A DNA stretch of 42,602 nucleotides, taken from positions 1-42,602 of the IMG/VR virus record IMGVR_UViG_3300045988_153375; one strand, written 5' to 3'. Shown here one piece after another: positions 1 to 42,602 of the stretch. Made by a program: the position numbers and the translations under genes. Numbering within the stretch: the stretch's first letter is position 1; every line of letters begins with the position of its first letter. The notes under the pieces are model-generated. The model saw only the letters and a list, made by a program, of their open reading frames with translations. It searched no databases and was not told the origin of the DNA. Source of the DNA: a virus.

Positions 1-55
1 ACTGTCACTGTCGATGAGATTACTGGCGTCGCGGCCAGGTGGATTCTCAAACATA
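1..55. repeat. 55-nt exact terminal overlap (copy 1), circular-assembly junction
   Basis: nt 1-55 (actgtcactgtcgatgag...ttctcaaacata) recur verbatim at 42548-42602. Confidence 0.95.
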
Positions 56-1233: not shown

Positions 1234-1544
1234 TCAAGCTATTCGATTGGGAATTTCTGAAGCACGTCACTGAGGCGTGCAAGGATTATGCCAGTAAGGG
1301 TGGGAATGATTCGCTCGGCCTAGAAGTAAGCGCCTGGAACAACAGCATCCATATTGTGGTCGCGTCGTTGGGGCACAGGTTTGTTTTTGAGACAGATACT
1401 GTGCGCGGCTACAAGGTGACGATTTTCGAACAGACGAACCGTTATTGGAGCCCCATGTTCGACGTCGGCTACACTTTCGACGGCGATGAGGTTCTTAACG
1501 CTTTCAATAGTTTTCTTGTCCATGTGGAGGTGGAAAACAATTGA
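1230..1544 (+). CDS. hypothetical protein (104 aa)
   Basis: ATGA overlap with the upstream stop (MIKLFDWEF...). The longer 1176 start has no support. Confidence 0.55.
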   Translation: MIKLFDWEFLKHVTEACKDYASKGGNDSLGLEVSAWNNSIHIVVASLGHRFVFETDTVRGYKVTIFEQTNRYWSPMFDVGYTFDGDEVLNAFNSFLVHVEVENN

Positions 1545-3112
1545 GTATTGAGAGGATTGCGGATTACGAGTTCGCATCCCCGGATGAGGGAGTGCACTAT
1601 GATTGGTTCGCTGACAGGATCATTGACTATTTGCAGTCCAGGTCGCCGGAAACGCCGTCACGTTTCCTGTGGACGACTTTTCTGACGATGGTGTCCGCAC
1701 CGTTGTCTGCGAGGACTCATTTGTCTGCGAACGCGCAGAACATGGTGCCGTTGACTTTGTATTCGCATTGTCTTGGGGCGTCCACTTTGTCGAGGAAGAC
1801 TACGGCGCAGTCTTTGGTGCGCGGTTTTTTTGACGATTGCGTGGGCGCGTTCAGGTGGGATTCGTCTCGGTCTTTGGCGATCGTGCAGGAGGTGGATTCG
1901 GCACTCCACATGCTGCACCGTCGCCTGGAATCCCTGGAAAGAAAGAGCGGGCGTATTGATATTGACGAGTACCGGACGGAGCGTGACGATATTAATAATC
2001 GTATCGCCGAGTTCGAGGCCGATCGAAAAGATTTGCTGAACACTATCGGCAATAGTCCGTGTGAGCGATCTTTGATGGCGAATGTTTCGTTCGGGTCTAA
2101 TGTGACGGCTGAAGGTTTGAATCTTCGGATGGCGCAGCGGCCTGGCGGGGCGTCTATCATGTTTGTAGACGAACTACAGAACATGTACTCCGCGTCACAG
2201 GGTGAGGGTTATCGTAGCGGGCTCATCGGATTCCTGACCGACGTCTACTCTGGCAAAACGGTTGAGTCCGTGCGTGTCGGCGACGATGGCGTCAGGCGTG
2301 CGGATAGTGAGAGGGTTCCCCATTTTCTCGCTTTCTGCGGCACTGGAATTCTCGGCGACGTAGTCGATAACATGTCGCAGTCTTTGTTCGAGACAGGGTG
2401 GGGGCCGCGTATTCTTTTCGCGTTGGATGAAGAGAATCGTCAGTCTGACCCGTCGTCTTTCGGATGGATCACCGACAATGACTTGAGCGCGCGTGGTGGT
2501 GATGGTTTCGTTGAGCATGCTTCCGAACATATTTCAACAATGCTGGGGATGATGCAGCGCGAATTTCGCGGTACTGTCACTTGCGTCACCGAGTTCTGGC
2601 CTGTCAACACGCCAATGACTATGACCGTGACCGAGTCTGCCCGGAATGTTTGGGTAGAAACAATGCGAGCCTGGGCCGGGGAGGCGGCCCGAGAGTCGCC
2701 CTTCAGGCGTGCGGTACAGGCGGTTATTGACCGCATGGGGAATCACATTATGCGCGTGGCCGCTATTCTGTCTCTTTTCGAGCAGCAGATGAGCGTGTCA
2801 TCGTCCGCGGTTCGGAAAGCATTCAGTCTGGCCGCTGATTTCTGGCTGCCTGATGCGCTGAAAATGGTCGACTATGTTTTTGTTCCGGATTTGACGCGTA
2901 TGGTGGATGATTTCAGTAGTAATCCTCCTACTGAGACGCGCCTTTATCAGGTGTTGGAGGCGAAGAATTTGTCCCCGCGGAGTGTCGAGGAGTATCGGCA
3001 GTACATTCTTCGTCGGGGCGTGAAGTTCCGCACCGAAGGTACCATCGTGGATAATGATCTCGTGGAGGCGATTCTGCGGGATCAGATAGCGGAACCATCG
3101 TACGGTGAGTGA
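1541..3112 (+). CDS. DUF3987-like helicase-type replication protein (523 aa)
   Basis: TTGA overlap start with GGAGGTGG 9 nt upstream. Layout matches DUF3987: a Walker-A-like ASTLSRKT, a Walker-B-like IMFVDELQ, and then GWGPRILFAL. Confidence 0.55.
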   Translation: MSIERIADYEFASPDEGVHYDWFADRIIDYLQSRSPETPSRFLWTTFLTMVSAPLSARTHLSANAQNMVPLTLYSHCLGASTLSRKTTAQSLVRGFFDDCVGAFRWDSSRSLAIVQEVDSALHMLHRRLESLERKSGRIDIDEYRTERDDINNRIAEFEADRKDLLNTIGNSPCERSLMANVSFGSNVTAEGLNLRMAQRPGGASIMFVDELQNMYSASQGEGYRSGLIGFLTDVYSGKTVESVRVGDDGVRRADSERVPHFLAFCGTGILGDVVDNMSQSLFETGWGPRILFALDEENRQSDPSSFGWITDNDLSARGGDGFVEHASEHISTMLGMMQREFRGTVTCVTEFWPVNTPMTMTVTESARNVWVETMRAWAGEAARESPFRRAVQAVIDRMGNHIMRVAAILSLFEQQMSVSSSAVRKAFSLAADFWLPDALKMVDYVFVPDLTRMVDDFSSNPPTETRLYQVLEAKNLSPRSVEEYRQYILRRGVKFRTEGTIVDNDLVEAILRDQIAEPSYGE

Positions 3113-4004
3113 TGTTTTCGGGGCGCGTTTCCCTGTGATGGTAGCGGGCAATGTTCGCTCCATCACAGGGTGGCGTGCCACTAACGTAAACCTTAATGAT
3201 TTCGCTGCCTTGTGTGAGGCGCCCTCAAAATGTGAGAAGTATGATGCTCCAGCTTTTTTTGCTGGCATTCTTTCGGGGGGTAGGCGGCAGAAGAGAAATT
3301 TTGTGTCCAGGTCCGCTATCGTTTTGGATGCGGATCATGGGTCGCGGAAAGATTTTGTCGGGGACCGCATGCGGACAGCGAATCTCGCCGGTATTGTGTG
3401 GGAGACGGCGTCGTCGTCTTTTCCGTCCCCGCGTTTCCGTGTTGTTCTGCCGTGCACTCGCAGCATGACCGTAGGAGAGTGTGAGGCGATCGGCCGGACG
3501 TGCTTTAGCGTGTTGGGGCCTGTGGCCCAGTGGGATGGGTCGTGCGCTGAGGCGTCTCGAGCTTTTTTCCTGCCATCACATCGCCTCGGGCTGCGAGTGC
3601 GCCATTGGCTCATTGACGGTGCCCGTTTGAATGTTGATAAGTGGCTGGAGAATATCGGGTACGAGGAGAAGAATGAGGGTGTTTCTTCGTCTTCTGTGCC
3701 CGATGGCGGTTATGGTGGTGTGATCGGGGAATTCAACTCGAAGTATAGTTTTGGTGATCTTGTTCGTTTGTTTGGTTGGCCTTACGAGTTGGTGGGGCGC
3801 CGTTGGCGGTATGTGCGTGGTGGGGACACGGCCCCAGGCGTGACGATGTTGGACGGTGGTCTGATCTACTCGCATCATGCGGATGATCCGCTCGCTGACG
3901 GCCGGGCGCACACTGTCTTCGATTGTGTAAGGGTGCTGGAGTGCGGTGGTGACGTGGGAGCGGCCGTGGGTGAGGCGCTGTCTCTCCTCCAACTGGAGAT
4001 GTGA
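3105..4004 (+). CDS. putative archaeo-eukaryotic (AEP) type primase, VirE_N/BT4734-like
   Basis: GTG start overlaps the upstream gene end. Motifs: AIVLDADHG (DxD), SSSFPSPRFRVVLP (SxSGxG-like strand) and WDGSCAEASRAFFLPSH (D.sc.d.sR..f). Recognised by eye only. Confidence 0.45.
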   Translation: MSDVFGARFPVMVAGNVRSITGWRATNVNLNDFAALCEAPSKCEKYDAPAFFAGILSGGRRQKRNFVSRSAIVLDADHGSRKDFVGDRMRTANLAGIVWETASSSFPSPRFRVVLPCTRSMTVGECEAIGRTCFSVLGPVAQWDGSCAEASRAFFLPSHRLGLRVRHWLIDGARLNVDKWLENIGYEEKNEGVSSSSVPDGGYGGVIGEFNSKYSFGDLVRLFGWPYELVGRRWRYVRGGDTAPGVTMLDGGLIYSHHADDPLADGRAHTVFDCVRVLECGGDVGAAVGEALSLLQLEM

Positions 4005-11954: not shown

Positions 11955-13463
11955 TCAGGAATTCGCCTCCGGGGCGGGAGACTCCGTGGCCGGAGTGGGA
12001 GACTCCGCGACACCATCATGCGCCTGCAAAGACGACGGCGTCGACACCGCCTTACGAATTTCGTTCACAGCACCATAAATCGCGCCCGCCTCACGAACAT
12101 TTTCCTGCCCCGGAGTCACAGAATGCAGAATCTGATCCACAGACGCATGAATAGACTTAACCTCCTCATAAGTTGCCTTAGCATACCAATTCATGTCGCC
12201 CGCAAAGTGATCCCCCGCCTTTCCACTACGGAAAAGATCACGAATCTCCCTGAGCAGATCAACACCCTCGCTCATATCCCAAAATTCCTCTCCGGCGCCC
12301 CCAGAAGGGCGACCATAATCATACCAAGACTTGCAACGATTACTGAAAAGAATCCCATAAGACTCATACGCGTCATACGGATTCCCTGAATTATACCGCG
12401 ACCCGACACGCTTCAAGGCCTCATAAGAATCGCCTTCCGCGTTAATGAGATCACGAAGAATACGGCAGCCGACCTCAGCCGACTTCTCAGGCATCCACCA
12501 TTCACGATCCGGATCATCAAAGAAATAACCCGGATACGTAATCTGCAACGGACCAACACCGTTCGAGTTTTCGCCGTCTCGAATTGCCGCAAAGAACTCA
12601 CGGAAATTCTCCTCGGTTACTTCCTCGCCGTGCGGGCCGGCACCACCGGCGTCGTGCCCGTAAATGTTCGCGCCGCGCTCGCCGGTCTCCATCCACAGGC
12701 ACGCCAGGGCGGCCCACCATGGGCAATTCTCCGCATCGGCGGCCCTGAGAACGGCCTCCTGAATTGAAGAAAGGCGGTATGAGCCGGCAGACTCATGCCC
12801 GTTATCGGAATCGGTCCGCTTCCCGAAACGGATGCATGTGGACCATGAGGCCGCAACGGTCATCGGGTGACTACTGTACCGGACTACGTGAGTCTCGTAG
12901 CCGGTCTGGTCACCCATCTGCCCTTCCGAGATTTCACCATTTTCATTAATCCACGCCTCAGCGAGGAGCGGGTCACCCGCGTTAAACGAACCATCATCTT
13001 CGCGCACGCACATTGCGACATGTCCACCGTCTCCGGTAGTTTTCAGGACCATGTCGCCGACATGGAATCCTCCCGACGGCGTGGACCCGTACCATGTGTC
13101 CCCAATATCCATGAAACCGCGGTTCGCGGCCAGGGTATTCAAGGTTTCGGTCCATGTTTCGCCGGTCCGCGGGAACATGATCGGATCGTCCCAGCCAGTT
13201 CCCCACACATTGTGGAATGCAATATTGTAGGCGCCCGCTACACCACTACTGCAATCCATGTCACCTGGGCCCGTTTTCCAGCCGGCATCATTGGAATTCC
13301 AGTAACAGGTCCACCGGTTGTCCTGGGCATATCCGGTGCCCCCGTAGTCGCCCGTGGTGCACCAATATTTCATTTCCGACGCAGCATATTCTGTGACGGA
13401 ATCTGCCAATTTTGCACCGCCTTTCGTAAAGGTTTTCGGTGGCTTTAATTTTATCATGAGCAC
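11955..13463 (-). CDS. multidomain endolysin (N-terminal Cys/His peptidase plus transglycosylase-like domain)
   Basis: The DCSSGV...GDGGHVAMCV pattern fits a CHAP or NlpC/P60-type Cys-His pair. The central WMETGERG...NGVGPLQITY resembles an SLT/lysozyme-like fold. An alternative ATG lies at 13457. Confidence 0.85.
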   Translation of the reverse strand: MLMIKLKPPKTFTKGGAKLADSVTEYAASEMKYWCTTGDYGGTGYAQDNRWTCYWNSNDAGWKTGPGDMDCSSGVAGAYNIAFHNVWGTGWDDPIMFPRTGETWTETLNTLAANRGFMDIGDTWYGSTPSGGFHVGDMVLKTTGDGGHVAMCVREDDGSFNAGDPLLAEAWINENGEISEGQMGDQTGYETHVVRYSSHPMTVAASWSTCIRFGKRTDSDNGHESAGSYRLSSIQEAVLRAADAENCPWWAALACLWMETGERGANIYGHDAGGAGPHGEEVTEENFREFFAAIRDGENSNGVGPLQITYPGYFFDDPDREWWMPEKSAEVGCRILRDLINAEGDSYEALKRVGSRYNSGNPYDAYESYGILFSNRCKSWYDYGRPSGGAGEEFWDMSEGVDLLREIRDLFRSGKAGDHFAGDMNWYAKATYEEVKSIHASVDQILHSVTPGQENVREAGAIYGAVNEIRKAVSTPSSLQAHDGVAESPTPATESPAPEANS

Positions 13464-32564: not shown

Positions 32565-33047
32565 TTAGTCGCCGGCGAAAACGTTCCGAGCGAATTCTGC
32601 AAGATTGCCGCTGTCATTGTCGGGCGTGGCTCCGGCCTGTGGTACCACGGGGGCGACGGACGGCTTAGCGTCGTGCAGTGCCTTGGCGATTGCGGCGGCA
32701 TGAGCGTTGATTTCATCCTCGGTTGTTCCTCGGATCAAATCTGCGCTGATACCGTGTTCTGCGGCAGCGTTGGCGGACCATTCACGGACTTTAGCGGCGG
32801 TTTCGAAGTCTGCCACTTTGGCCTTTAGGGCTTCGATTGTGGCGTCTTTGTCGCCGATTGCCTTGGCGAGCTCGTCTCGTTCGTTGGCGGCGCGCCGATT
32901 TTCCTTGGCGCGATTCTCCCACTTCCGGGACTCACTCTTCCAGTCGATTTCAGACTTACTAGCAGCGTTGTCCCCGCTCTTGGGGGCGTTGTCGTCGTTA
33001 GTGGCACTGTTATCGGCCGGCGTGTCGCTGGCGGCGTTATCGCTCAT
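32565..33047 (-). CDS. scaffolding protein
   Basis: 160 aa, acidic N-terminus, long charged helix/coiled-coil, located upstream of the capsid gene. Confidence 0.7.
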   Translation of the reverse strand: MSDNAASDTPADNSATNDDNAPKSGDNAASKSEIDWKSESRKWENRAKENRRAANERDELAKAIGDKDATIEALKAKVADFETAAKVREWSANAAAEHGISADLIRGTTEDEINAHAAAIAKALHDAKPSVAPVVPQAGATPDNDSGNLAEFARNVFAGD

Positions 33048-33154
33048 TGGGCGTTTCCTATATTTTGACCGTGCGGTTATTGTGATGTTTCAGGCAACTA
33101 TTTTGGGCTTTGCAGCCTTCCTTCAGTGGCCTTTGTTTATGCATTGTAGCACAA

Positions 33155-33880
33155 TCATTCAATTGGTCGGGTGCGCCATTGTGTGAGCTCCTCTTGGTGC
33201 GTGTCTATCCACGATGAGACGAGTTCACGGTGACGTTTGCGGCCTTTTTCAGTTTTATGCCGGGCCGCGAGCGCGTACGCTTTCGCCGGCACTTCCCGAG
33301 CTGTCGGGTCCCATGCGGGGACTGCGACACATTTGCAATTGTCGTGCGCCCCGAATGACGCGGTGCCCTGGCTGCGGTAGTAGCATTCGTTCATTGTGAG
33401 CATGACGCAGAAATTGCAGGCTTGCGGGTTACGTGTCCGTCTTTCCCAGCCCATTGCTTCCGGGTCGGCCCATGTCATGTCTGCGATTTGCGCTCTGGCG
33501 CCGTCGCTGACGTATCGAATGAGTGCCCCGGTCAAATAGGATAGGGCAATGTCAGGGTTTCCGGCGTATAGTGCGCCGGCGCTGAACCGTACACTGTCGT
33601 CGATTTCGCCTTGTGGGGTGAGTGGTGTTTGTACGGTGGGGGCGTCGCCTGGAATGTCTTGGTCTAGGCGCATGTCGCGGTACCATTCGTCGGCGATTGC
33701 GGCGGCCGCACCGCCGTATTGGTCTACGAGGGCGGGCATGATTTCGAGCAGAAGGTCACGGGCTTGTTCGGGGCGTTGTCTAGCGGCGTGGGCCCAGAGT
33801 GTGTGTAGATCGTTTTGGGCGAGTGCGGTGAGTGAGTCTACGGCTCGCCCGTATGCCCCGATTTCTGCGGTTGACAGCAT
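33155..33880 (-). CDS. MuF/SPP1 gp7-like head morphogenesis protein
   Basis: Position after the portal. C-terminal CNFC...HDNCKC motif. Confidence 0.65.
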   Translation of the reverse strand: MLSTAEIGAYGRAVDSLTALAQNDLHTLWAHAARQRPEQARDLLLEIMPALVDQYGGAAAAIADEWYRDMRLDQDIPGDAPTVQTPLTPQGEIDDSVRFSAGALYAGNPDIALSYLTGALIRYVSDGARAQIADMTWADPEAMGWERRTRNPQACNFCVMLTMNECYYRSQGTASFGAHDNCKCVAVPAWDPTAREVPAKAYALAARHKTEKGRKRHRELVSSWIDTHQEELTQWRTRPIE

Positions 33881-33888
33881 AATAGGTG

Positions 33889-35505
33889 TTAGTTTATTGG
33901 TGTTTTGGTGCCGCCGGGCAGTTTAATGTTGCGCTTGACCCTGTTCCTTGTATTGGGCGCGTTATTAAGGTTCAGGTTGCTGCCACTGCCGTTACTGCTA
34001 CTGTTGTTGGCGGCGTTATTGGCGTTGTTATCGTCGTCAGCGTTAGTCGCGTCGGCGTTTTCGATATTCTCGCCATTCTCATCCACCGTGCCTCCGTTGT
34101 TCGTGGCGGCGAGAGCACGATCAAGCAATGATACCGCATTCTTTTTGCGATTCTCAGCGTTAATGTCTGCGAGATCGTCCTCGGTGAGTCCGGCACGCCG
34201 CATGAGAGTCTGCGACTCCTGCAACGACGGAAACGCAGACACCATTTTGACCGCGAAATCGGCGGCAGACGACGGCGAGGAATAGCGGGCGGGGGTCCAC
34301 TTCACCGAGGTCTTCCACGACTCTTGCGGCGGCTCGTCGAGTTTGTCACGGACCATAATAATATTCTGCAGCGTACGCCGCAGCGGTGCAGAGAAGATTC
34401 GCCACTGATACTCGGCCTCGTCCGCGAGCGCCGCCTCGGACGCCTGCATCGCCTCAGCCGAGGACGGGTTATCCGCGAATATCCCGATAGCGGACTGAGG
34501 TAGGTTTGTGGCCGCGCACAAATTCTGCGCCAGTTGACGGTACATTTCCAAGTGGGGGCTCATGGTCATTTGTGAGAATTGCCCAACCGACGGGATGTCC
34601 CCGTTTTCGTTCGGCTCCAGCACTTGGACGCGGGCCATGATTGCGGACCACCTGTCTTGGCCGGCGAAATCTGCTCTTTCCGCGCCGAGCACGTAGCGTT
34701 GCGGTGAGGAGAAGAATTCTGCGGAGGTTTCTGCGCGGACCATTGTCCTCACCGCCGCGTCCGTGAGATATCTTACTTCGCGGGTGATTCGTGAGTGACC
34801 CAACGGCCGGTTCAGTTGGGGGTCGTAGCAGAGTGCTTCAACGAAAATGCGGTGGGGGGTGTCTCCGAGTTTCTCAGCCTTCCATCCACCGCCGTTTTCT
34901 CGGGCGTCGATTCGCCAAATAGCGGTGGGGGTGTGCATGATGGCGCCTGCCGGCTGCCCGTATTTGTCGGTCTGATCGATTGTGAGGGCGGCCTCGATTA
35001 TGCGACGCCTGGTGTCCCAAAGGGCGGCGGACCATTCCGCGTCACGGGCCTGCACGACGACAGGCGGCTCACCAATAGTCTCATCCCCCCGCGTCACTGT
35101 GAGCAGTGAGAAAGAATGCTTGTACGCTGAAGTGATCGCCTGCGCGAGATCAAGATCGTAATTGTTAGCGGATAGTATTTCGTTTGCTTCGAAGGCGTCG
35201 GGCGCCCCGTTCAGGGAGTAGCCTTCGAATACGTGCCGTCGGGCGAGCATGGTGACGACTTTCTGAGGCCACCCCAACGCGGCTTTGGTGCGCGTCATTT
35301 GCGGCGGAATACTGATACCCAGGTCTTGGAAAGCGCGGTGGCCGTCATAGTAGACGGAAAGCAGCTTGTTTTTGTTCGAGTGCTGCTGCCATTTCTGCCA
35401 CAGTTGCAGAAATGTTACCCGATCGTCGTCGGGTAGTCCGGAAATGCGTGTGGGTGCCGGCGTAGCATTAACGAGTCGTCCGTCGTCAGGATAAATTTCA
35501 GTCAT
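33889..35505 (-). CDS. portal protein (SPP1 gp6-like)
   Basis: 538 aa, directly downstream of TerL, with an Asn-rich low-complexity C-terminal tail. Confidence 0.9.
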   Translation of the reverse strand: MTEIYPDDGRLVNATPAPTRISGLPDDDRVTFLQLWQKWQQHSNKNKLLSVYYDGHRAFQDLGISIPPQMTRTKAALGWPQKVVTMLARRHVFEGYSLNGAPDAFEANEILSANNYDLDLAQAITSAYKHSFSLLTVTRGDETIGEPPVVVQARDAEWSAALWDTRRRIIEAALTIDQTDKYGQPAGAIMHTPTAIWRIDARENGGGWKAEKLGDTPHRIFVEALCYDPQLNRPLGHSRITREVRYLTDAAVRTMVRAETSAEFFSSPQRYVLGAERADFAGQDRWSAIMARVQVLEPNENGDIPSVGQFSQMTMSPHLEMYRQLAQNLCAATNLPQSAIGIFADNPSSAEAMQASEAALADEAEYQWRIFSAPLRRTLQNIIMVRDKLDEPPQESWKTSVKWTPARYSSPSSAADFAVKMVSAFPSLQESQTLMRRAGLTEDDLADINAENRKKNAVSLLDRALAATNNGGTVDENGENIENADATNADDDNNANNAANNSSSNGSGSNLNLNNAPNTRNRVKRNIKLPGGTKTPIN

Positions 35506-36995
35506 AGGAACAATACTCCGCCGCCACGTCCATTATTACTATTGGCGTTTTCGATTTTATCATAAGGCTTATAGCGCGGTCTTCTTTTTGTTGTGCGTGC
35601 GGCCCACATTGCGAGCGTGCATGCTTCTAGGCCGGCTACGGTGGCGCCCGGCGGTGCTTGTAGGGCCCATCCTCCGGATGTTCCGATTGGGCGTGGCGTC
35701 GCAGAAGCGGCCTCGGTCCTCAGTTGCATGTCGTCCAGGTGTGTGATTGTGTTTTCGCGTAGTGAGGCGTCTAGCATACTGTAGGCGTCTATGATTTGCG
35801 TGATCGTGGGTGTGATGATGACTTGGGGGCGTACTCCGATGGCGCGTAGTCTTTCGATTGTGTCTCCGGCACCGTATTTTCCGTCTACGATGATTTGTGC
35901 CCATCTGTCTTTTGTGTCCGCGATGTAGTCGATGATCCATTGCGTGCCTTCGCTCATGCGGCGGACGCCTTGGTGCGTGCAGAGTTCGACGTGTGTGGGC
36001 GTGTTTTGCTTGTGTCCGGCTCGGGCTAGGGCACAGGTTGACCCGTCGGGGGCGAATCGGATTGCGGCGCACCAGCGCATACCGGTCGGCGTGTTTTCTG
36101 GCCGTATTGTGGCAGTGTTCCAGGCGACAGGGTCTATTGCGAGCCTGTCGTTGGCGCGGTCCCATATTCCGAGGCCTTCACGGCGGAATGATTCTTCTCC
36201 GAGCTGCCTACGCATTCTTAGAATGGCGGATTCGGGTGTGCGGCGCGGGTATGATGGATTTGCTTTTTCCCATTGTTTCCGGTCGTCGCTGTTGGCGTCG
36301 TAGTCGGCGGCCAACTCCAAATAGAGGCCGTCTTTTATTTCGCCTTGCAGGGCGAGGTTGCGGAATTCGCTGAATGCTTCGGATGGGTCTTTCGGTTTTG
36401 GTGGTGTTCCGATTTTGATGATGAGCGGGTCCGGGGCGGTGTTTGTGGCGGGGATCATGTCGTCTAGTGCGGCGGCGCCTAGGATTTGGGCTTCGTCGAA
36501 GAGGATCATGTCTACGCCGTGGAATCCGCGTCCGAATCCTCCTTCGCGGGCGCCGAACAGGATTCGTGATCCGTTATTGAAGAGGATGGCCTGTTGTCCG
36601 TTTGCTTGCCGTATTTTGTTCACGTACGGGGCGATGTTGGGGATTTGTGCCATTCCTTTCATGTCGTTGAATGTTTCGTCGGCGGTGCGTGTGCGGTGTG
36701 CGGTCCAGAGTACGAAGTAGTTGGGGTGGAGGGTGGCGAGTGCGAATGTGAGGCCGCCGATTGTGTATGTTTTGCCGACCTGTCTGGGGATGCTGGCTTG
36801 GATTCCGTCGATGCTGGCGGCGTAGTGGCCGTCGTTTCGTTTGGCGAGGATTGCTTTGAGCCAGTCTTGCTGCCATGTGTCGAGGGGGTATTGCATTTCT
36901 TGGAGGCGGCGTTGGACTGGCGGCCAGGCGGTGTGTGTGATGTTTTCTGGGAGGGTGAGGTGGGCGGCGATTTCGCTTAGGTGTTTTTCGCTCAT
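35502..36995 (-). CDS. terL: terminase large subunit
   Basis: Walker A IPRQVGKTYT, Walker B MILFDEAQ, and a C-terminal nuclease-type domain. Confidence 0.92.
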   Translation of the reverse strand: MSEKHLSEIAAHLTLPENITHTAWPPVQRRLQEMQYPLDTWQQDWLKAILAKRNDGHYAASIDGIQASIPRQVGKTYTIGGLTFALATLHPNYFVLWTAHRTRTADETFNDMKGMAQIPNIAPYVNKIRQANGQQAILFNNGSRILFGAREGGFGRGFHGVDMILFDEAQILGAAALDDMIPATNTAPDPLIIKIGTPPKPKDPSEAFSEFRNLALQGEIKDGLYLELAADYDANSDDRKQWEKANPSYPRRTPESAILRMRRQLGEESFRREGLGIWDRANDRLAIDPVAWNTATIRPENTPTGMRWCAAIRFAPDGSTCALARAGHKQNTPTHVELCTHQGVRRMSEGTQWIIDYIADTKDRWAQIIVDGKYGAGDTIERLRAIGVRPQVIITPTITQIIDAYSMLDASLRENTITHLDDMQLRTEAASATPRPIGTSGGWALQAPPGATVAGLEACTLAMWAARTTKRRPRYKPYDKIENANSNNGRGGGVLFL

Positions 36996-36996
36996 T

Positions 36997-37278
36997 TTAG
37001 ATGCCGTCCCAGGTTTGTGTTTCGTTTGGAATGTCGGTGGTGTGTGTGGTGGTGTTTTCGTTTTGTGTGGTGGCTAGTTGGTCTGTGATTTGTATGAGTT
37101 GTGCGGTGAGTTTTGTGAGTGCTGTGTCGCCTGTTCTGGGGTCGTCTATGACGGTGGCGATTTTGTGTGCTAAGGCTTGGCGGATGAGTGTTGGGTTGCC
37201 GGTGTTTGTGGCGTCTGTGATGGGGGCGGGACTGTTGGGTTCGTATACGGTGATTGTGGTGTTTGTGTGGGTTGTCAT
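36997..37278 (-). CDS. hypothetical protein (93 aa), positional candidate for the small terminase
   Basis: It ends 1 nt before the terL ATG. There is no recognisable motif. The T/N-rich ends reflect the local A/C-rich strand composition. Confidence 0.45.
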   Translation of the reverse strand: MTTHTNTTITVYEPNSPAPITDATNTGNPTLIRQALAHKIATVIDDPRTGDTALTKLTAQLIQITDQLATTQNENTTTHTTDIPNETQTWDGI

Positions 37279-37285
37279 GTCTTCT

Positions 37286-37291
37286 ATTATA
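37286..37291 (-). promoter_or_regulatory. candidate -10 TATAAT placed 7 nt from ATG 37278 (leaderless late/packaging operon start)
   Basis: The minus strand reads TATAAT-AGAAGAC-ATG. Confidence 0.4.
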
Positions 37292-37320
37292 TGTGGTGGT
37301 GTGAGTCACGTCTGGTGGGG

Positions 37321-37447
37321 TTTTCCACAGGGTTATCCACAGGGTGGAGGGTTTTCCACAGGGTTTTCCACAGGTTGGGGAGTTTTCCACATGATGGCGG
37401 TCACATTGTGATGTGGGTTACTGGAGTTATCCACAGGGTTTTCCACA
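37321..37447 (+). promoter_or_regulatory. cluster of seven DnaA-box consensus 9-mers TT(A/T)TCCACA, all in one orientation
   Basis: Boxes at 37321-29, 37333-41, 37352-60, 37364-72, 37383-91, 37427-35 and 37439-47. Two are TTATCCACA and five are TTTTCCACA. Most are followed by GG(G). Confidence 0.7.
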
Positions 37448-37559
37448 AGCAGGGAGGGATGGGCAGACCTTCGGGGTGTTCGCGGCCGGATGGGGGAGGG
37501 GGGGTGGCCCCCATCACATAATTTGTGTGGTGTGCGTCTCGTTTACGTGTGTTCCCTGT

Positions 37560-37980
37560 GTTGTTTGTGATGTGGGTCCCATGCCTAAGGGATCCCTTAC
37601 TGCGTTGGGGCCCCCTTTTTGTTCGTCTCGTTTTGTTGCCATGGTTTTTTTGAACGCCATTGTTGTTTCACGCTTTGCATGTTTTTGCGTGTTTTTGTAA
37701 CATTTCTTTTGTTTTTATGCATTTTTGTGTGTTTGTGCGTTTGTGCGTTGTGCTTGCCTTGTGGCATGCGTTGGCACCATGCATGGTGCATGGTGTTGGT
37801 ATGCATGTCATGCATCACATCATCATGTGTTCACTATCATGTTCATGATGTTCATCATTGATGATCGTTGATCATCATGATGTTCGTCGTTCATTGTTCA
37901 TTGATTGTTGATTGAACGTTGATCATCGATCATCGTTGATCATTGTTGTTCGTTGGTTGTGTGAACGTGAACAGTGTGAG
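37560..37980. other. AT-rich, palindrome-dense low-complexity tract (candidate DNA unwinding element / protein-binding array)
   Basis: Contains TAAGGGATCCCTTA (37586-99), T-runs, ATGCAT/CCATGCATGG palindromes, several TGATCA sites, and CGTTGATCAT three times (37866, 37917, 37934). No credible ORF. Confidence 0.5.
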
Positions 37981-39062
37981 GTGAGACAGTGGATGGTGTC
38001 CATCCTCGTCGGCGTGTTCTGTTATTGAATGGCGGTGGGGTGTGCTGCTGTCCTGCCGCAGTGCAGTGGTGTGCCCCGCGCCTTACTCATCCCACTGCAG
38101 TGCTGCTGAGTACTGCGATCGTGTCGTGTATTGTTCCTTGCCGGGTGTGTGGTGCAGTGTGGGTGAGTGTGCGTCTGTGGTGTTTGTGTGGTGGGGTATC
38201 CTCCGATGACCCTCCCCCATTCGTGGTGGTGGGTGGGGCCATCATGGTTGGTGGGGTGGCATGACGAGGCGGGGGTGGCATGACTGGGGAAGGGCGGTAG
38301 TGTCGCGGGTATCCCCTTCCGTGTATGGGTGTCCCCCGTCTGTTCGCGTGGTGGTCCCGTTGAAGGGCGGGAGTGGCGTGTGTTGTGATGTCCCGTCTTC
38401 GGATCGGGTTCTCCCCTTTCACATTGTCCCTGTCCTCTCGCATTGTCTCGCTTCCCTGTTGTGTTGTGTGTTGTGGGTGGGGAAGTGTGGTGGCGTGTGG
38501 TGTCCGTTACACATTGCGTTGTGGTGTATGTCTCTGTGTGCGAGTGGTGGGGTTGTGTGGAGTGTGGAATGTCGGTGGTGGTAGAACTGTGTCCCTCTCT
38601 TCTCTCTCTTCTCCCCTCCCTCATCTTTGTGTTTGCTGTCACGGTATTGTTGGTTTAGGGGGGCGTCTTTGTGTCAGGGTTGTGTCATTGTGGAATAGCG
38701 GTGATGGTTTGTGTTGGGTAGAAGGGTGTGTGCGGTGTCTACTGTCTGCTGTGTACTGTGTACTGTTCTCCCTTCTGTGTTGTGGTGTATGTGTGGTGGT
38801 CATGTCGCATTGTGTTGTGGGTTGTGGAATGGCGGTGCGTGAGGGGTGTGGTCTCGTCGTTTGTCTTCTTTTGTTCTCTTCCTTCTCTTCTTCTTCCTTT
38901 GTGCTGGTGTTCGGGGTAGTGCGCGCGCAGCTCTGCGAGCACGCACGTTATCCCCGAACACCATTGTGTCCCCTCGTTGCTTGTTCGTCCTCTTCTCTCT
39001 TCTTCTCCCCGCCTTTCTTCACCGTCCGTCTTTCATTGTGTTGGAATGGCGGGGGGGGTGAT
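37981..39062. other. about 1.1-kb extremely G/T-skewed (plus strand) apparently non-coding region
   Basis: The plus strand is almost free of A. Long ORFs on both strands have aberrant composition (C/V/G/L-rich or T/H/P-rich). There are no RBS-plus-start combinations. Confidence 0.6.
38905..38963. repeat. conserved hairpin element, copy A
   Basis: The 34-nt core TAGTGCGCGCGCAGCTCTGCGAGCACGCACGTTA is enclosed by the 12-bp stem TGGTGTTCGGGG / CCCCGAACACCA. Confidence 0.75.
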
Positions 39063-39407
39063 TCACCATGTGTCGGTGTGTTGTGTTGGCATGACGGCGA
39101 CGGGTAGTCTGTCTCGTTCGTCTTCGTTTTTCTGGTAGTGGCGCGCTCTTCCTTTGCCGTGCTTGCCGTTGCCTCGTCTGCTGTTGCATTTGGCGCATAA
39201 CACTCTGCCGTTGTCTGGGTGATTGGTTCCGCCTAGTGATGCTGGGATTATGTGGTCTGCTTCGGCGCTGTTTGGTTTGCGTTGTCCGTTGTTGTTGTAT
39301 TGGAGTTTTACTCCGCATGCTGGGCAGTGTGTGATGCCCATTGCTTGTGCTCGTGCGAGTACTTGTTTTCTGAATTGTTTGTGTTCTCGTGTGCTTGTTC
39401 TGCTCAC
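39063..39407 (-). CDS. HNH endonuclease
   Basis: CPACG...AEADHIIPASLGGTNHPDNGRVLCAKCNSRRGN (HNH core with paired Cys). GTG start follows AAGAAGAGAA. Confidence 0.9.
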   Translation of the reverse strand: MSRTSTREHKQFRKQVLARAQAMGITHCPACGVKLQYNNNGQRKPNSAEADHIIPASLGGTNHPDNGRVLCAKCNSRRGNGKHGKGRARHYQKNEDERDRLPVAVMPTQHTDTW

Positions 39408-39571: not shown

Positions 39572-39633
39572 TGGTGTGTGTTGTGTAGTGCGCGCGCAGC
39601 CCTGCGAGCACGCACGTAACACAACACACACCA
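39572..39633. repeat. conserved hairpin element, copy B
   Basis: The core TAGTGCGCGCGCAGCCCTGCGAGCACGCACGTAA matches copy A at 32 of 34 positions. It is enclosed by a different 14-bp stem, TGGTGTGTGTTGTG / CACAACACACACCA. Confidence 0.75.
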
Positions 39634-39766: not shown

Positions 39767-39779
39767 CATGTTCCCTAAT

Positions 39780-39835
39780 TAGACACTGTCTAGTTCTGTT
39801 AGACAGTGTCTAATTCTAGTACTCTTTTAAGAGTA
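39780..39835. promoter_or_regulatory. three operator-like palindromes
   Basis: TAGACACTGTCTA (39780-92), TTAGACAGTGTCTAA (39799-813) and TACTCTT-TT-AAGAGTA (39820-35), in an AT-rich gap. Confidence 0.6.
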
Positions 39836-39876
39836 TAGGTTGGGCCCAACACAGTGGCGAGCTCTTCGAAAACACC

Positions 39877-40166: not shown

Positions 40167-40211
40167 AAAGTAAACGGAAGATGAACAAAGTAAACGGGAG
40201 GTTAACGGAAC
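40167..40211. repeat. direct repeats AAAGTAAACGG(A/G)AG x2 plus a GTTAACGGAAC half-copy
   Basis: Copies at 40167-80 and 40187-200 (20-bp phase), with a related copy at 40201-11. Confidence 0.6.
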
Positions 40212-42298: not shown

Positions 42299-42602
42299 AT
42301 GGTAATGCTGCGGTTTGAATATGATGGCCCCGACATTGAAGGGGTGACTGACCGGGGTGTTGAGATGGGGCTTATTCGAGAGAATATGCCGCCTGCCACG
42401 TCCTACTATCATGATAATGATGGTTTCACTGTCATTGTGTGGGACACTGAGGTTGGCGTTATTGAAACGTACGTGTTTGATAATGGTAGGTCGACAGTAT
42501 GGTATTTCAGTACGAAAAACACGGCGGCGGATGCTTGGTGGCGGAAAACTGTCACTGTCGATGAGATTACTGGCGTCGCGGCCAGGTGGATTCTCAAACA
42601 TA
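42299..42602 (+). CDS. 5' part of the junction-spanning hypothetical protein (continues at nt 56-249 after collapsing the overlap)
   Basis: ATG 42299 follows GGGGAAGAGAGGAG. The frame stays open to the window end and is in phase with frame 1 at the window start. Confidence 0.6.
   Translation, partial: MVMLRFEYDGPDIEGVTDRGVEMGLIRENMPPATSYYHDNDGFTVIVWDTEVGVIETYVFDNGRSTVWYFSTKNTAADAWWRKTVTVDEITGVAARWILKH
42548..42602. repeat. 55-nt exact terminal overlap (copy 2)
   Basis: Identical to nt 1-55. Confidence 0.95.

What the first reader, a model, noticed from the sequence alone, without database searches (positions are those of the whole stretch)
37321..37447. Seven co-oriented DnaA-box consensus sites directly upstream of the packaging operon
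Within 127 bp the plus strand carries TT(A/T)TCCACA seven times: 37321, 37333, 37352, 37364, 37383, 37427 and 37439. Two copies are the exact E. coli consensus TTATCCACA. Five are TTTTCCACA, which fits the general TTWTNCACA box. All point the same way, and most are extended to ...CACAGGG. A 9-mer recurring seven times in 127 bp cannot be chance. The nearest box sits about 30 bp upstream of a TATAAT that lies 7 nt from ATG 37278. The array could therefore be (a) a phage origin that recruits host DnaA, (b) a DnaA-titrating or DnaA-sensing switch coupling late/packaging transcription to host replication status, or (c) iterons for a phage protein that happen to mimic the DnaA box. I know of no well-described dense DnaA-box arrays in a phage that also encodes its own primase and helicase-type proteins, though I could not search for one.
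Basis: partly seen in the sequence, partly recalled or inferred. Interest (0 to 1): 0.85.

Follow-up and report, generated by a model that had tools for sequence, protein, structure and literature searches.

The report
DnaA-box array beside phage cos site
Seven perfect binding sites for the bacterial replication initiator DnaA sit 18 bp inside the left cohesive end of a common human-associated phage genome, where lambda-type phages keep their packaging-recognition sites, which suggests the phage uses host DnaA at its packaging site or late promoter rather than at a classical origin.

Summary
Seven co-oriented TTWTCCACA boxes lie at 37321-37447, and they are the only DnaA-box matches in this 42.5-kb circularly assembled phage genome. 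Their sequence, R1-type flanks and 3-bp tandem spacing match high-affinity DnaA sites of bacterial oriC.

The physical left end of the virion DNA (cos) is at 37465, 18 nt from the outermost box. The array therefore fills the whole space between cos and a conserved leaderless terS promoter.

More than 60 near-identical metagenomic relatives keep 5-9 boxes (one contig has one). The boxes are essentially invariant, while the spacers vary freely in sequence but keep their length.

Isolated relatives (Rothia, Arthrobacter, Propionibacterium and Mycobacterium phages) carry one TTTTCCACA-like element at the same distance from their left end. TerS here has lost nearly all basic residues.

My best reading (about 0.4) is that host DnaA loads on the array as a cosB-like packaging-site complex, which may also gate the terS promoter. 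The rivals are a DnaA-timed late promoter, an origin split by cos, direct terminase sites and a DnaA sponge. None can be settled without binding or infection experiments.

The parts
37321..37329 (+). DnaA box 1 (TTTTCCACA), nearest the promoter, 29 nt from the -10
   Evidence: invariant in relatives
37333..37341 (+). DnaA box 2 (TTATCCACA), tandem partner of box 1 with a GGG spacer
37352..37360 (+). DnaA box 3 (TTTTCCACA)
37364..37372 (+). DnaA box 4 (TTTTCCACA), tandem partner of box 3
37383..37391 (+). DnaA box 5 (TTTTCCACA), unpaired
37401..37411 (.). Conserved palindrome TCACAATGTGA between boxes 5 and 6. Unique in the genome; its flanks vary; one relative (L003) lacks it
37417..37426 (-). 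Conserved CTCCAGTAAC element next to the cos-proximal box pair, unique in the genome
37427..37435 (+). DnaA box 6 (TTATCCACA)
37439..37447 (+). DnaA box 7 (TTTTCCACA), nearest cos, 18 nt from the left genome end
37448..37465 (-). First 18 nt of the virion DNA (TGCCCATCCCTCCCTGCT on the - strand). The left physical end is at 37465
   Evidence: Eight independent contigs start exactly here and four more within 4 nt, one of them with an Illumina adapter fused directly. Homologous to the left ends of Spartoi, MrSmee and B22
37466..37476 (-). Candidate 11-nt 3' cohesive overhang (CCCCGAAGGTC on the - strand)
   Evidence: One contig from the same sample as the adapter-fused left end stops at ...GCGAACA. 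Homologous to the Spartoi right end. A 12-base gap was reported for the related P. freudenreichii phages (PMC5831693). The length is tentative
37500..37512 (.). GC palindrome GGGGGTGGCCCCC on the right side of cos, shared with relatives
37520..37990 (.). Most AT-rich stretch of the genome (39.5-42% GC against 55.4%). Non-coding, full of short tandem repeats, 80-90% conserved in 17 relatives
37286..37291 (-). -10 hexamer TATAAT of a leaderless terS promoter (7 nt to the ATG). The hexamer and both spacings are conserved while the sequence around them varies
36997..37278 (-). terS (93 aa, phrog_1459), acidic, only 4 Lys/Arg
35502..36995 (-). terL
39063..39407 (-). HNH endonuclease of the HNH-terminase cos system. 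Here it lies 1.6 kb from the right end, against 50-160 bp in relatives

Best explanation
SHOWN: the array is a cluster of seven perfect, co-oriented DnaA boxes (5-9 in relatives). It occupies nt 19-145 of the virion DNA, between the left cohesive end and the leaderless promoter of terS, which is the position of cosB in lambda-type phages. INFERRED: host DnaA binds the tandem pairs. The 12-bp spacing within pairs and the 31-bp repeat between pairs (about three helical turns) put all pairs on one face of the helix, so a bent DnaA-DNA complex forms next to the nick site. This complex marks and shapes the left side of cos for the HNH-TerL-TerS terminase. DnaA would then do the job that the gpNu1 R-sites plus IHF do in lambda, and would make up for a TerS that has lost the basic residues conserved in its family. 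Because the same complex ends 29 nt upstream of the terS -10, it probably also modulates late-operon transcription. The array most likely arose by amplifying the single TTTTCCACA-like element that related actinophages keep about 20 nt from their left end.
For: Sequence identity with DnaA sites. The boxes are the only TTWTNCACA matches in the genome. The exact tandem 23-mer recurs in more than 120 bacterial genome contigs from many phyla. These include the dnaA-dnaN intergenic region of Thermus, the region upstream of dnaA in Deinococcus, and upstream of dnaB in two actinobacteria. It also recurs in about 40 unrelated phage contigs, some inside O-like or DnaD-like initiator genes. E. coli oriC R1 reads TTATCCACAGGG. 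Position. The genome end at 37465 rests on eight contigs starting exactly there, four more within 4 nt, an adapter fusion, and cos homology with isolated phages. Selection. 278 of 286 boxes in 44 distinct relatives are perfect, and the only tolerated change is A/T at position 3. The spacers vary freely in sequence but keep their length. A positionally equivalent box occurs 19-33 nt from the left end in Spartoi, MrSmee, AbbyDaisy, MargaretKali, B22/G4/Doucette and MooMoo, and in many uncultured relatives. TerS has 4 Lys/Arg against 15-19 in most of the clade (two have 8 and 10). It has none in its first 30 residues, and the family-conserved arginines are replaced. It has no recognisable DNA-binding domain. 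No DnaA-like protein is encoded.
Against: No binding data exist, and DnaA has never been reported as a packaging factor. The boxes are inverted relative to the single element of the isolated relatives. The nearest outgroup (TerL 59-62%) has TTTTTTCCCAA there, which is not a DnaA box. Across the clade the element drifts (ATTTCCACA, TTTTCCACG, TTTCCGCAG) much as a phage-specific site would. That fits direct recognition by terminase. One relative (L052) has a single box, and L003 lacks box 5 and the palindrome, so most of the array is dispensable if those assemblies are correct. The fixed outer junctions could simply result from unequal crossing-over between repeats.
Confidence: 0.4

Rival explanations
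1. DnaA-gated late promoter, or copy-number timer. The array controls the leaderless terS promoter just downstream. DnaA bound at about -42 to -170 represses or activates it. Each new genome adds 5-9 high-affinity sites, so free DnaA per genome falls as replication proceeds and late transcription becomes coupled to phage copy number or host replication state.
For: The perfect -10 with a 7-nt spacer to the ATG is conserved. The -35 region is poor and variable. The box-to--10 distance is fixed at 29-30 nt despite hypervariable sequence. Only this lineage has 1.6 kb inserted between HNH and cos, so it needs its own terS promoter. Tandem boxes upstream of dnaB in actinobacteria point to DnaA-regulated promoters in related hosts. 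Own knowledge: DnaA regulates dnaA, sda and lambda pR.
Against: It does not explain the homologous single box in relatives such as MrSmee and AbbyDaisy, whose first gene follows with a Shine-Dalgarno sequence and no promoter. It also does not explain why the distal pair sits exactly 18 nt from the nick. The promoter scan did not call this promoter because it lacks a -35.
Confidence: 0.2
2. Replication origin assembled across the joined cohesive ends. After circularisation the DnaA boxes and the AT-rich repeat region 37520-37990 become contiguous. DnaA opens the AT-rich DNA for the phage helicase-primase.
For: DnaA boxes on phages and plasmids are usually parts of origins, and in unrelated phages the same tandem box lies inside initiator genes next to iterons. 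The lowest-GC 200-nt windows of the whole genome lie 60-520 bp from the last box, and that region is conserved and non-coding. The boxes point toward it, as R1 points toward the DUE in E. coli. B22-type relatives carry a prim-pol gene right after the cos-left box.
Against: About 65 bp of GC-rich DNA, including cos itself, separates the boxes from the AT-rich region, so this is not a box/DnaA-trio/DUE unit. The strand asymmetry is opposite to E. coli: the strand carrying TGTGGATAA is A-rich here. Copy number varies from 5 to 9 and possibly down to 1. Relatives with the single box have HNH abutting cos and no AT-rich region. The phage encodes its own DUF3987 helicase and primase-like proteins but no helicase loader. 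No weak boxes flank the array.
Confidence: 0.15
3. Direct terminase recognition sites (a multi-copy cosB bound by TerS, TerL or HNH). The match to the DnaA consensus is inherited from a clade-wide cos element (a T-run followed by CCACA) and has no role in function.
For: The element sits at a fixed distance from the nick throughout a TerL clade spanning four host genera. It drifts with phylogeny and is sometimes duplicated about 19-20 nt apart. Repeats between cosN and terS are the classical TerS sites (own knowledge of lambda cosB).
Against: TerS here is acidic (pI 4.55), has 4 Lys/Arg and no DNA-binding domain. TerS is only 19-24% identical to those of phages with the same 9-mer. The orientation is inverted. 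The tolerated A/T at position 3, the G flanks and the 3-bp tandem spacing all coincide with high-affinity oriC-type DnaA sites. Seven consensus boxes would be bound by DnaA in the cell in any case.
Confidence: 0.12
4. DnaA sponge for host takeover. Replicating genomes soak up host DnaA and block new rounds of chromosome replication.
For: The array holds 5-9 consensus boxes per genome with variable copy number. Own knowledge: datA and the B. subtilis DnaA-box clusters titrate DnaA, and multicopy box clusters inhibit initiation.
Against: It explains neither the location at cos nor the single box in relatives nor the fixed spacings.
Confidence: 0.06

Closest known systems
Lambda cosB (gpNu1 R3-R2-R1 sites plus the IHF site I1)
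   Same: It lies between the nick site and the small-terminase gene. It has several short protein-binding sites with fixed spacing, and a host DNA-bending protein takes part. The packaged DNA begins with this segment.
   Different: Here the sites are consensus DnaA boxes, all in one orientation and in tandem pairs. TerS has no winged-helix domain and few basic residues. The system is of the HNH-dependent, 3'-overhang (HK97-like) type. Binding by any protein is untested.
DnaA-box pairs in the injection-stop (iss) region of T5-like phages (bioRxiv 10.1101/866236)
   Same: These are about eight consensus or near-consensus DnaA boxes in pairs separated by 3 bp. They lie in a non-coding terminal region of a phage that has its own replication genes, are conserved across relatives, and have no proven function.
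   Different: The T5 boxes sit in inverted-repeat modules several kb from the end, inside long terminal repeats. They are not next to a terminase gene or a cos site, and half of them are degenerate.
Bacterial oriC tandem DnaA boxes, and plasmid or phage origins with DnaA boxes (P1 oriR type, lambda-O-like origins)
   Same: Identical box sequence, R1-type flanks and 2-3 bp tandem spacing. An AT-rich region lies within 0.5 kb.
   Different: No DnaA-trio or DUE lies directly next to the boxes. There are no initiator iterons and no initiator gene nearby. The cohesive-end site lies between the boxes and the AT-rich DNA.
Non-origin DnaA-box clusters (E. coli datA, B. subtilis DBCs) and DnaA-regulated promoters
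   Same: A cluster of high-affinity boxes outside an origin, next to a promoter.
   Different: It is on a virus, at a genome end, with strict one-way orientation and 31-bp phasing.

Membership tests
DnaA-box cluster (sequence level) | Several matches to TTWTNCACA, far more than chance | tested here: met
   Seven perfect matches in 127 bp against 1.9 expected in 42.6 kb, and none elsewhere
DnaA-box cluster (sequence level) | Same extended sequence and spacing as sites in bona fide oriC | tested here: met
   The exact tandem 23-mer occurs in the Thermus dnaA-dnaN intergenic region and upstream of Deinococcus dnaA. The R1 flank GGG occurs in E. coli oriC
DnaA-box cluster (sequence level) | Bound by DnaA | not testable with these tools
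   Needs EMSA, footprinting or ChIP
oriC-type / basal-unwinding-system origin | AT-rich unwinding element or DnaA-trios directly adjacent to the box pair | tested here: not met
   About 65 bp of GC-rich DNA including cos follows the last box, and the AT-rich DNA begins near 37520
oriC-type / basal-unwinding-system origin | Replication starts here | not testable with these tools
   No coverage or marker-frequency data. GC skew is dominated by gene orientation
Iteron-type phage or plasmid origin | Iterons for an element-encoded initiator, usually in or beside its gene, with accessory DnaA boxes | tested here: not met
   No initiator gene is nearby. The helicase and primase genes are at 1541-4004. 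Only short repeats occur 400 bp away, across cos
cosB-type packaging recognition region | Located between the cohesive-end nick site and terS | tested here: met
   Left end at 37465, array at 37321-37447, terS ATG at 37278
cosB-type packaging recognition region | Positionally conserved element in phages with related terminases | tested here: met
   A single TTTTCCACA-like element lies 19-33 nt from the left end in at least 7 isolated phages and many uncultured relatives. It is inverted here
cosB-type packaging recognition region | Required for terminase binding and cos cleavage | not testable with these tools
   Needs in vitro cleavage or packaging assays
Protein-coding or RNA gene | Open reading frame or structured RNA maintained across relatives | tested here: not met
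   Copy number changes in 31-bp steps, the spacers are hypervariable, and there is no Rfam or tRNA hit

The most novel reading that the evidence does not exclude
A clade of actinobacteriophages with HNH-terminase cos systems (hosts Rothia, Arthrobacter, Propionibacterium, Mycobacterium) uses host DnaA, bound about 20 bp from the nick, as the host factor for cos recognition. In this human-associated lineage DnaA has become the main DNA-recognition component of the packaging machine, with an amplified box array and a TerS stripped of its DNA-contacting residues.
Probability: 0.25. Interest if true: 0.85.

Novelty: new variant of a known kind. Interest (0 to 1): 0.62.

Why it matters
DnaA is known as a replication initiator and transcription factor. 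Phages and plasmids are known to borrow it for origins. A conserved, strongly selected array of consensus DnaA boxes in the packaging-recognition position of a cos phage would add a third use, or at least a direct link between host replication status and late or packaging functions. The phage is abundant: its TerS is found in 93 sample blocks of human-associated metagenomes, and more than 60 near-complete genomes exist. Isolated relatives with a single box (Spartoi, MrSmee, B22) are cultivable, so the idea can be tested directly. The finding also gives a practical marker (cos-left motif plus box) for locating genome ends in this actinophage clade.

Tried and rejected
- Near and distant nucleotide searches of the region against isolated phages found nothing.
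- A tblastn search with TerS found nothing. A word-indexed protein search found only close relatives.
- A TerS profile against PDB sequences gave only coiled-coil noise. The AlphaFold model was low confidence (pLDDT 52), so I did no fold search.
- I looked for a phage-encoded DnaA-like binder with phmmer, using two DnaA proteins against all six-frame ORFs. There was no hit.
- Rfam and tRNA scans were empty.
- The promoter/terminator scan was uninformative for the terS promoter.
- Cumulative GC skew was not usable to place an origin.
- I rejected a coding reading of the array (31-bp copy-number steps, hypervariable spacers).
- I rejected chance.
- I rejected an assembly artefact, because independent IMG/VR and ENA assemblies from different studies show the same architecture.
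- Literature searches for DnaA boxes together with cos, cosB or terminase found no paper. The P. acnes and P. freudenreichii phage papers do not mention DnaA.
- The host could not be identified.

Full report
OBSERVATION
Five are TTTTCCACA and two are TTATCCACA, all on the + strand at 37321-37447. The whole window is expected to hold 0.65 such sites, and none of 100 shuffles reached seven. Under the looser TTWTNCACA these are still the only matches in the genome. One-mismatch matches elsewhere are at background level. The sites form tandem pairs with a 3-bp spacer (12 bp start to start). The pairs repeat every 31 bp. A 44-bp interval before the last pair holds a palindrome, TCACAATGTGA. The array is not coding. 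Copy number changes in 31-bp steps among relatives and the spacers are hypervariable. No Rfam family or tRNA matches.

WHAT THE WINDOW IS
The last 55 nt repeat the first 55 nt, so the window is a circularly assembled complete genome of about 42.55 kb. On the - strand, running downward from 37278, lie terS (phrog_1459), terL, an SPP1-type portal, VG15 and the capsid gene. An HNH endonuclease is at 39063-39407. The + strand carries a DUF3987 helicase, primase-like proteins, an SNF2 helicase, an exonuclease and a Sak4-type annealing protein. The closest isolated relatives by TerL (46-50% identity) are cos phages of Arthrobacter, Rothia and Propionibacterium freudenreichii. Mycobacteriophage clusters K and G follow at about 40%. 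The exact TerS sequence occurs in 93 sample blocks of public assemblies, always on contigs of 50 kb or less. The phage is therefore common in human-associated metagenomes and is never seen integrated. The host is unknown. An oral or skin actinobacterium such as Rothia is a reasonable guess from the TerL relatives and the 55% GC; this is inference.

THE ARRAY LIES AT THE PHYSICAL GENOME END
- Sixty-two IMG/VR contigs encode a TerL 95-99% identical to this one.
- Eight of them begin exactly with TGCCCATCCCTCCCTGCT-TGTGGAAAA, and four more begin within 4 nt of that point.
- One of those four (L050) begins with the Illumina adapter tail ...GCTCTTCCGATCT fused directly to TGCCC, which marks a real DNA end.
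- An unrelated lineage gives a control. L385 shows the same adapter fused to AGCGAAAT..., a start that resembles the AGCGAT... left ends deposited for Spartoi, MrSmee and B22.
- The junction is homologous to those phages on both sides: a GGGGG..CCCCC palindrome, then CGAACACCCC.., then the end, followed by a C-rich motif.
- The left end is therefore window 37465, reading downward on the - strand.
- A contig from the same sample as the adapter-fused end stops at ...GCGAACA. That leaves CCCCGAAGGTC (37466-37476) as a tentative 11-nt 3' overhang. The related P. freudenreichii phages were reported with a 12-base low-coverage gap (PMC5831693).
- The array thus occupies nt 19-145 of the virion DNA, between the nick site and terS. 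This is the position of cosB in lambda (own knowledge).

SELECTION ON THE BOXES
- Across 44 distinct versions of the cos-to-terS interval there are 286 boxes: 214 TTTTCCACA, 64 TTATCCACA and 8 single-mismatch variants, two of them TTGTCCACA.
- The base before each box is G in 100% of cases. The second base after the box is G in 98%.
- The 10-nt spacers between pairs and the 29-30-nt stretch between the last box and the -10 are close to saturated with substitutions, yet they keep their length.
- Copy number is 5-9, with 7 the commonest. Eight independent ENA assemblies from other studies show the same architecture.
- One contig (L052) has a single box, and L003 lacks box 5 and the palindrome. 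These may be real variants or collapsed assemblies.
- CATATAAT, a 7-nt spacer and the ATG are conserved while the bases between them vary. This supports a leaderless terS promoter, a common arrangement in Actinobacteria (own knowledge).

ARE THESE DnaA SITES?
- The exact tandem 23-mer TTTTCCACAGGGTTWTCCACAGG occurs in about 40 viral contigs unrelated to this phage, with GC from 34 to 69%.
- Two of those groups carry it inside lambda-O-like or DnaD-like initiator genes, one of them next to iterons. Others carry it beside an integrase or between late genes.
About a third of the hits lie inside clusters of five or more boxes.
- Pfam confirms that the Thermus arciformis cluster lies between dnaA and dnaN and that the Deinococcus piscis cluster lies upstream of dnaA.
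- In two actinobacteria (Cryobacterium, of the order Micrococcales, and Stackebrandtia) the tandem boxes lie about 200 bp upstream of dnaB, next to a TTGTCCACA box. Relatives of the likely host therefore use this box type.
- The E. coli segment that holds R1 reads TTATCCACAGGG on the box strand. It is single-copy and lies between mnmG and mioC.
- The window encodes no DnaA-like protein.
- I conclude, at about 0.8, that the array binds host DnaA. Binding itself cannot be tested with these tools.

THE CLADE-WIDE COS-LEFT ELEMENT
- Isolated relatives carry one TTTTCCACA at a matching distance from their left end. The sites are Spartoi 20-28, MrSmee 21-29, AbbyDaisy 20-28, MargaretKali 22-30, B22 19-27 (G4 and Doucette are similar) and MooMoo 25-33.
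- An alignment-based scan found many more uncultured relatives. About half of the 46-51% TerL group have a perfect box.
- The rest have ATTTCCACA, TTTTCCACG, TTTCCGCAG or similar, sometimes two copies about 19-20 nt apart.
- The nearest outgroup (59-62% TerL) has TTTTTTCCCAA, which is not a DnaA box.
- Cluster K and G mycobacteriophages and the C. acnes phages keep only a T- or A-tract next to CCAC(A).
- In all of these the element reads T-run then CCACA going inward from the end. In this lineage the boxes are inverted, and this lineage alone has an array.
- This pattern cuts both ways. It ties the boxes to cos function, but the drift resembles that of a phage-specific recognition site.

TerS
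TerS aligns with the small terminases of the clade at only 19-24% identity. It has 4 Lys/Arg and none in its first 30 residues, and its pI is 4.55. Most clade members have 15-19 Lys/Arg (two have 8 and 10). They also share a basic N-terminal K/R-x-LRAV-x-PDE arm and a conserved RDLAALxRR, which here reads GDTALTKLTAQ. No DNA-binding domain is detectable. The structure model shows two helices at low confidence. A TerS this acidic is a poor candidate for reading the boxes itself; this is inference.

OTHER LINEAGE-SPECIFIC FEATURES
In Spartoi, MrSmee and B22 the HNH gene ends 50-160 bp from the right end. Here 1.6 kb of non-coding DNA intervenes. The part next to cos (37520-37990) is the most AT-rich DNA in the genome and is 80-90% conserved. 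The part at 38400-39050 is riddled with indels.

INTERPRETATION
I weigh five readings.
1. DnaA-assisted cosB (about 0.40). This best explains the position, the homologous element in relatives, the fixed spacings and the degenerate TerS. It has no precedent and must accommodate the inverted orientation, which an architectural bending role would tolerate.
2. A DnaA-gated or DnaA-titrated terS promoter (about 0.20). This fits the promoter anatomy but not the relatives that lack a promoter there.
3. An origin joined across cos (about 0.15). This fits prior knowledge and the AT-rich neighbour. It fails on adjacency, strand asymmetry, copy-number variation and the single-box relatives.
4. Direct terminase sites with only an incidental DnaA likeness (about 0.12).
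5. A DnaA sponge (about 0.06).
Readings 1 and 2 are compatible with each other. I expect the same complex to serve both.

COMPARISON WITH WHAT IS KNOWN
The nearest described things are:
- lambda cosB, which shares the position and the logic but uses different proteins;
- the paired DnaA boxes of the T5 injection-stop region;
- oriC-type and plasmid-type DnaA-box origins;
- the datA type of cluster.
Full-text searches found no paper that links DnaA boxes to cos, cosB or terminase. I class the finding as a new variant of a known kind: a real, strongly selected DnaA-box cluster in an unreported place, with its function still open.

Noticed in passing
window 1-55 and 42548-42602: The last ~55 nt repeat the first ~55 nt, so the window is a circularly closed assembly of a complete ~42.55-kb phage genome. 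The natural orientation (terS first) is the - strand, starting at 37465.
   Followed up: yes
window 36997-37278 (- strand): TerS is extremely poor in basic residues: 4 Lys/Arg, none in the first 30 aa, pI 4.55. Most related small terminases have 15-19. All family-conserved arginines are replaced.
   Followed up: partly
window 37466-39062: A 1.6-kb non-coding insert lies between HNH and cos, and isolated relatives lack it. The half next to cos is AT-rich and conserved. The half at 38400-39050 is hypervariable, with CT- and GT-rich low-complexity runs. A 42-nt GC-rich hairpin-like repeat occurs at 38907-38948 and again at 39576-39617.
   Followed up: partly
window 39777-39815 and 39832-39860: A perfect 16-nt inverted repeat (AATTAGACACTGTCTA / TAGACAGTGTCTAATT) lies just downstream of the only sigma-70-like promoter match on the - strand, upstream of HNH. 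It looks like an operator-controlled promoter. Two 20-nt direct repeats (AAAGTAAACGG...) at 40167-40206 lie nearby.
   Followed up: no
window 33000-39400: There is strong strand asymmetry: AT skew -0.17 to -0.61 across these 1-kb windows (-0.41 to -0.61 from 36 to 39 kb), with GC skew up to +0.35 on the + strand. The coding (-) strand is therefore A/C-rich and poor in G and T, and the translated ORFs are rich in Thr, His, Pro and Asn.
   Followed up: no
L085, L093, L105, L111, L139 and L097 (IMG/VR contigs): Unrelated low-GC phages carry the same tandem DnaA-box 23-mer right after 4-5 direct iterons inside a DnaD-like or O-like initiator gene. These are textbook iteron origins with accessory DnaA boxes.
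   Followed up: partly
L102, L117, L127, L138, L141 (GC 0.65-0.69, same sample as many relatives): In high-GC phage contigs a terminator hairpin is followed by the tandem box and, about 140 bp on, by reversed boxes. This sits between paralogous 550-660-aa genes that all begin MTT..VYSK.G.DRRF. The function is unknown.
   Followed up: no
L074 and L119 (GC 0.55): Another dense one-way array of 13-14 DnaA boxes, in groups of three to six with 11-12 bp spacing, lies in a small viral contig next to long GC-rich simple repeats.
   Followed up: no
L246 (Cryobacterium), L217 (Stackebrandtia); L211, L216, L237, L276 (Nocardiopsis): Tandem TTWTCCACAGGGTTWTCCACAGG lies about 200 bp upstream of dnaB in two actinobacteria. 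In four Nocardiopsis contigs it sits in the same conserved flanking sequence, which in L211 lies next to pknB and a rhomboid gene. These appear to be conserved DnaA sites outside oriC.
   Followed up: partly
L186-L192, L316-L321, L357-L409 (left ends of related phages): A large actinophage TerL clade shares a cos-left motif: AGCGAT(A/C)TCTCCCC, 4-6 nt, a run of 5-7 T, then CCACA. Contig starts with the sequencing adapter fused directly onto them (L050, L385) mark true cos ends in metagenome assemblies.
   Followed up: partly
window 11955-13463 (- strand): A 502-aa ORF with an endolysin-like domain (PF25309) lies on the - strand among + strand early genes.
   Followed up: no
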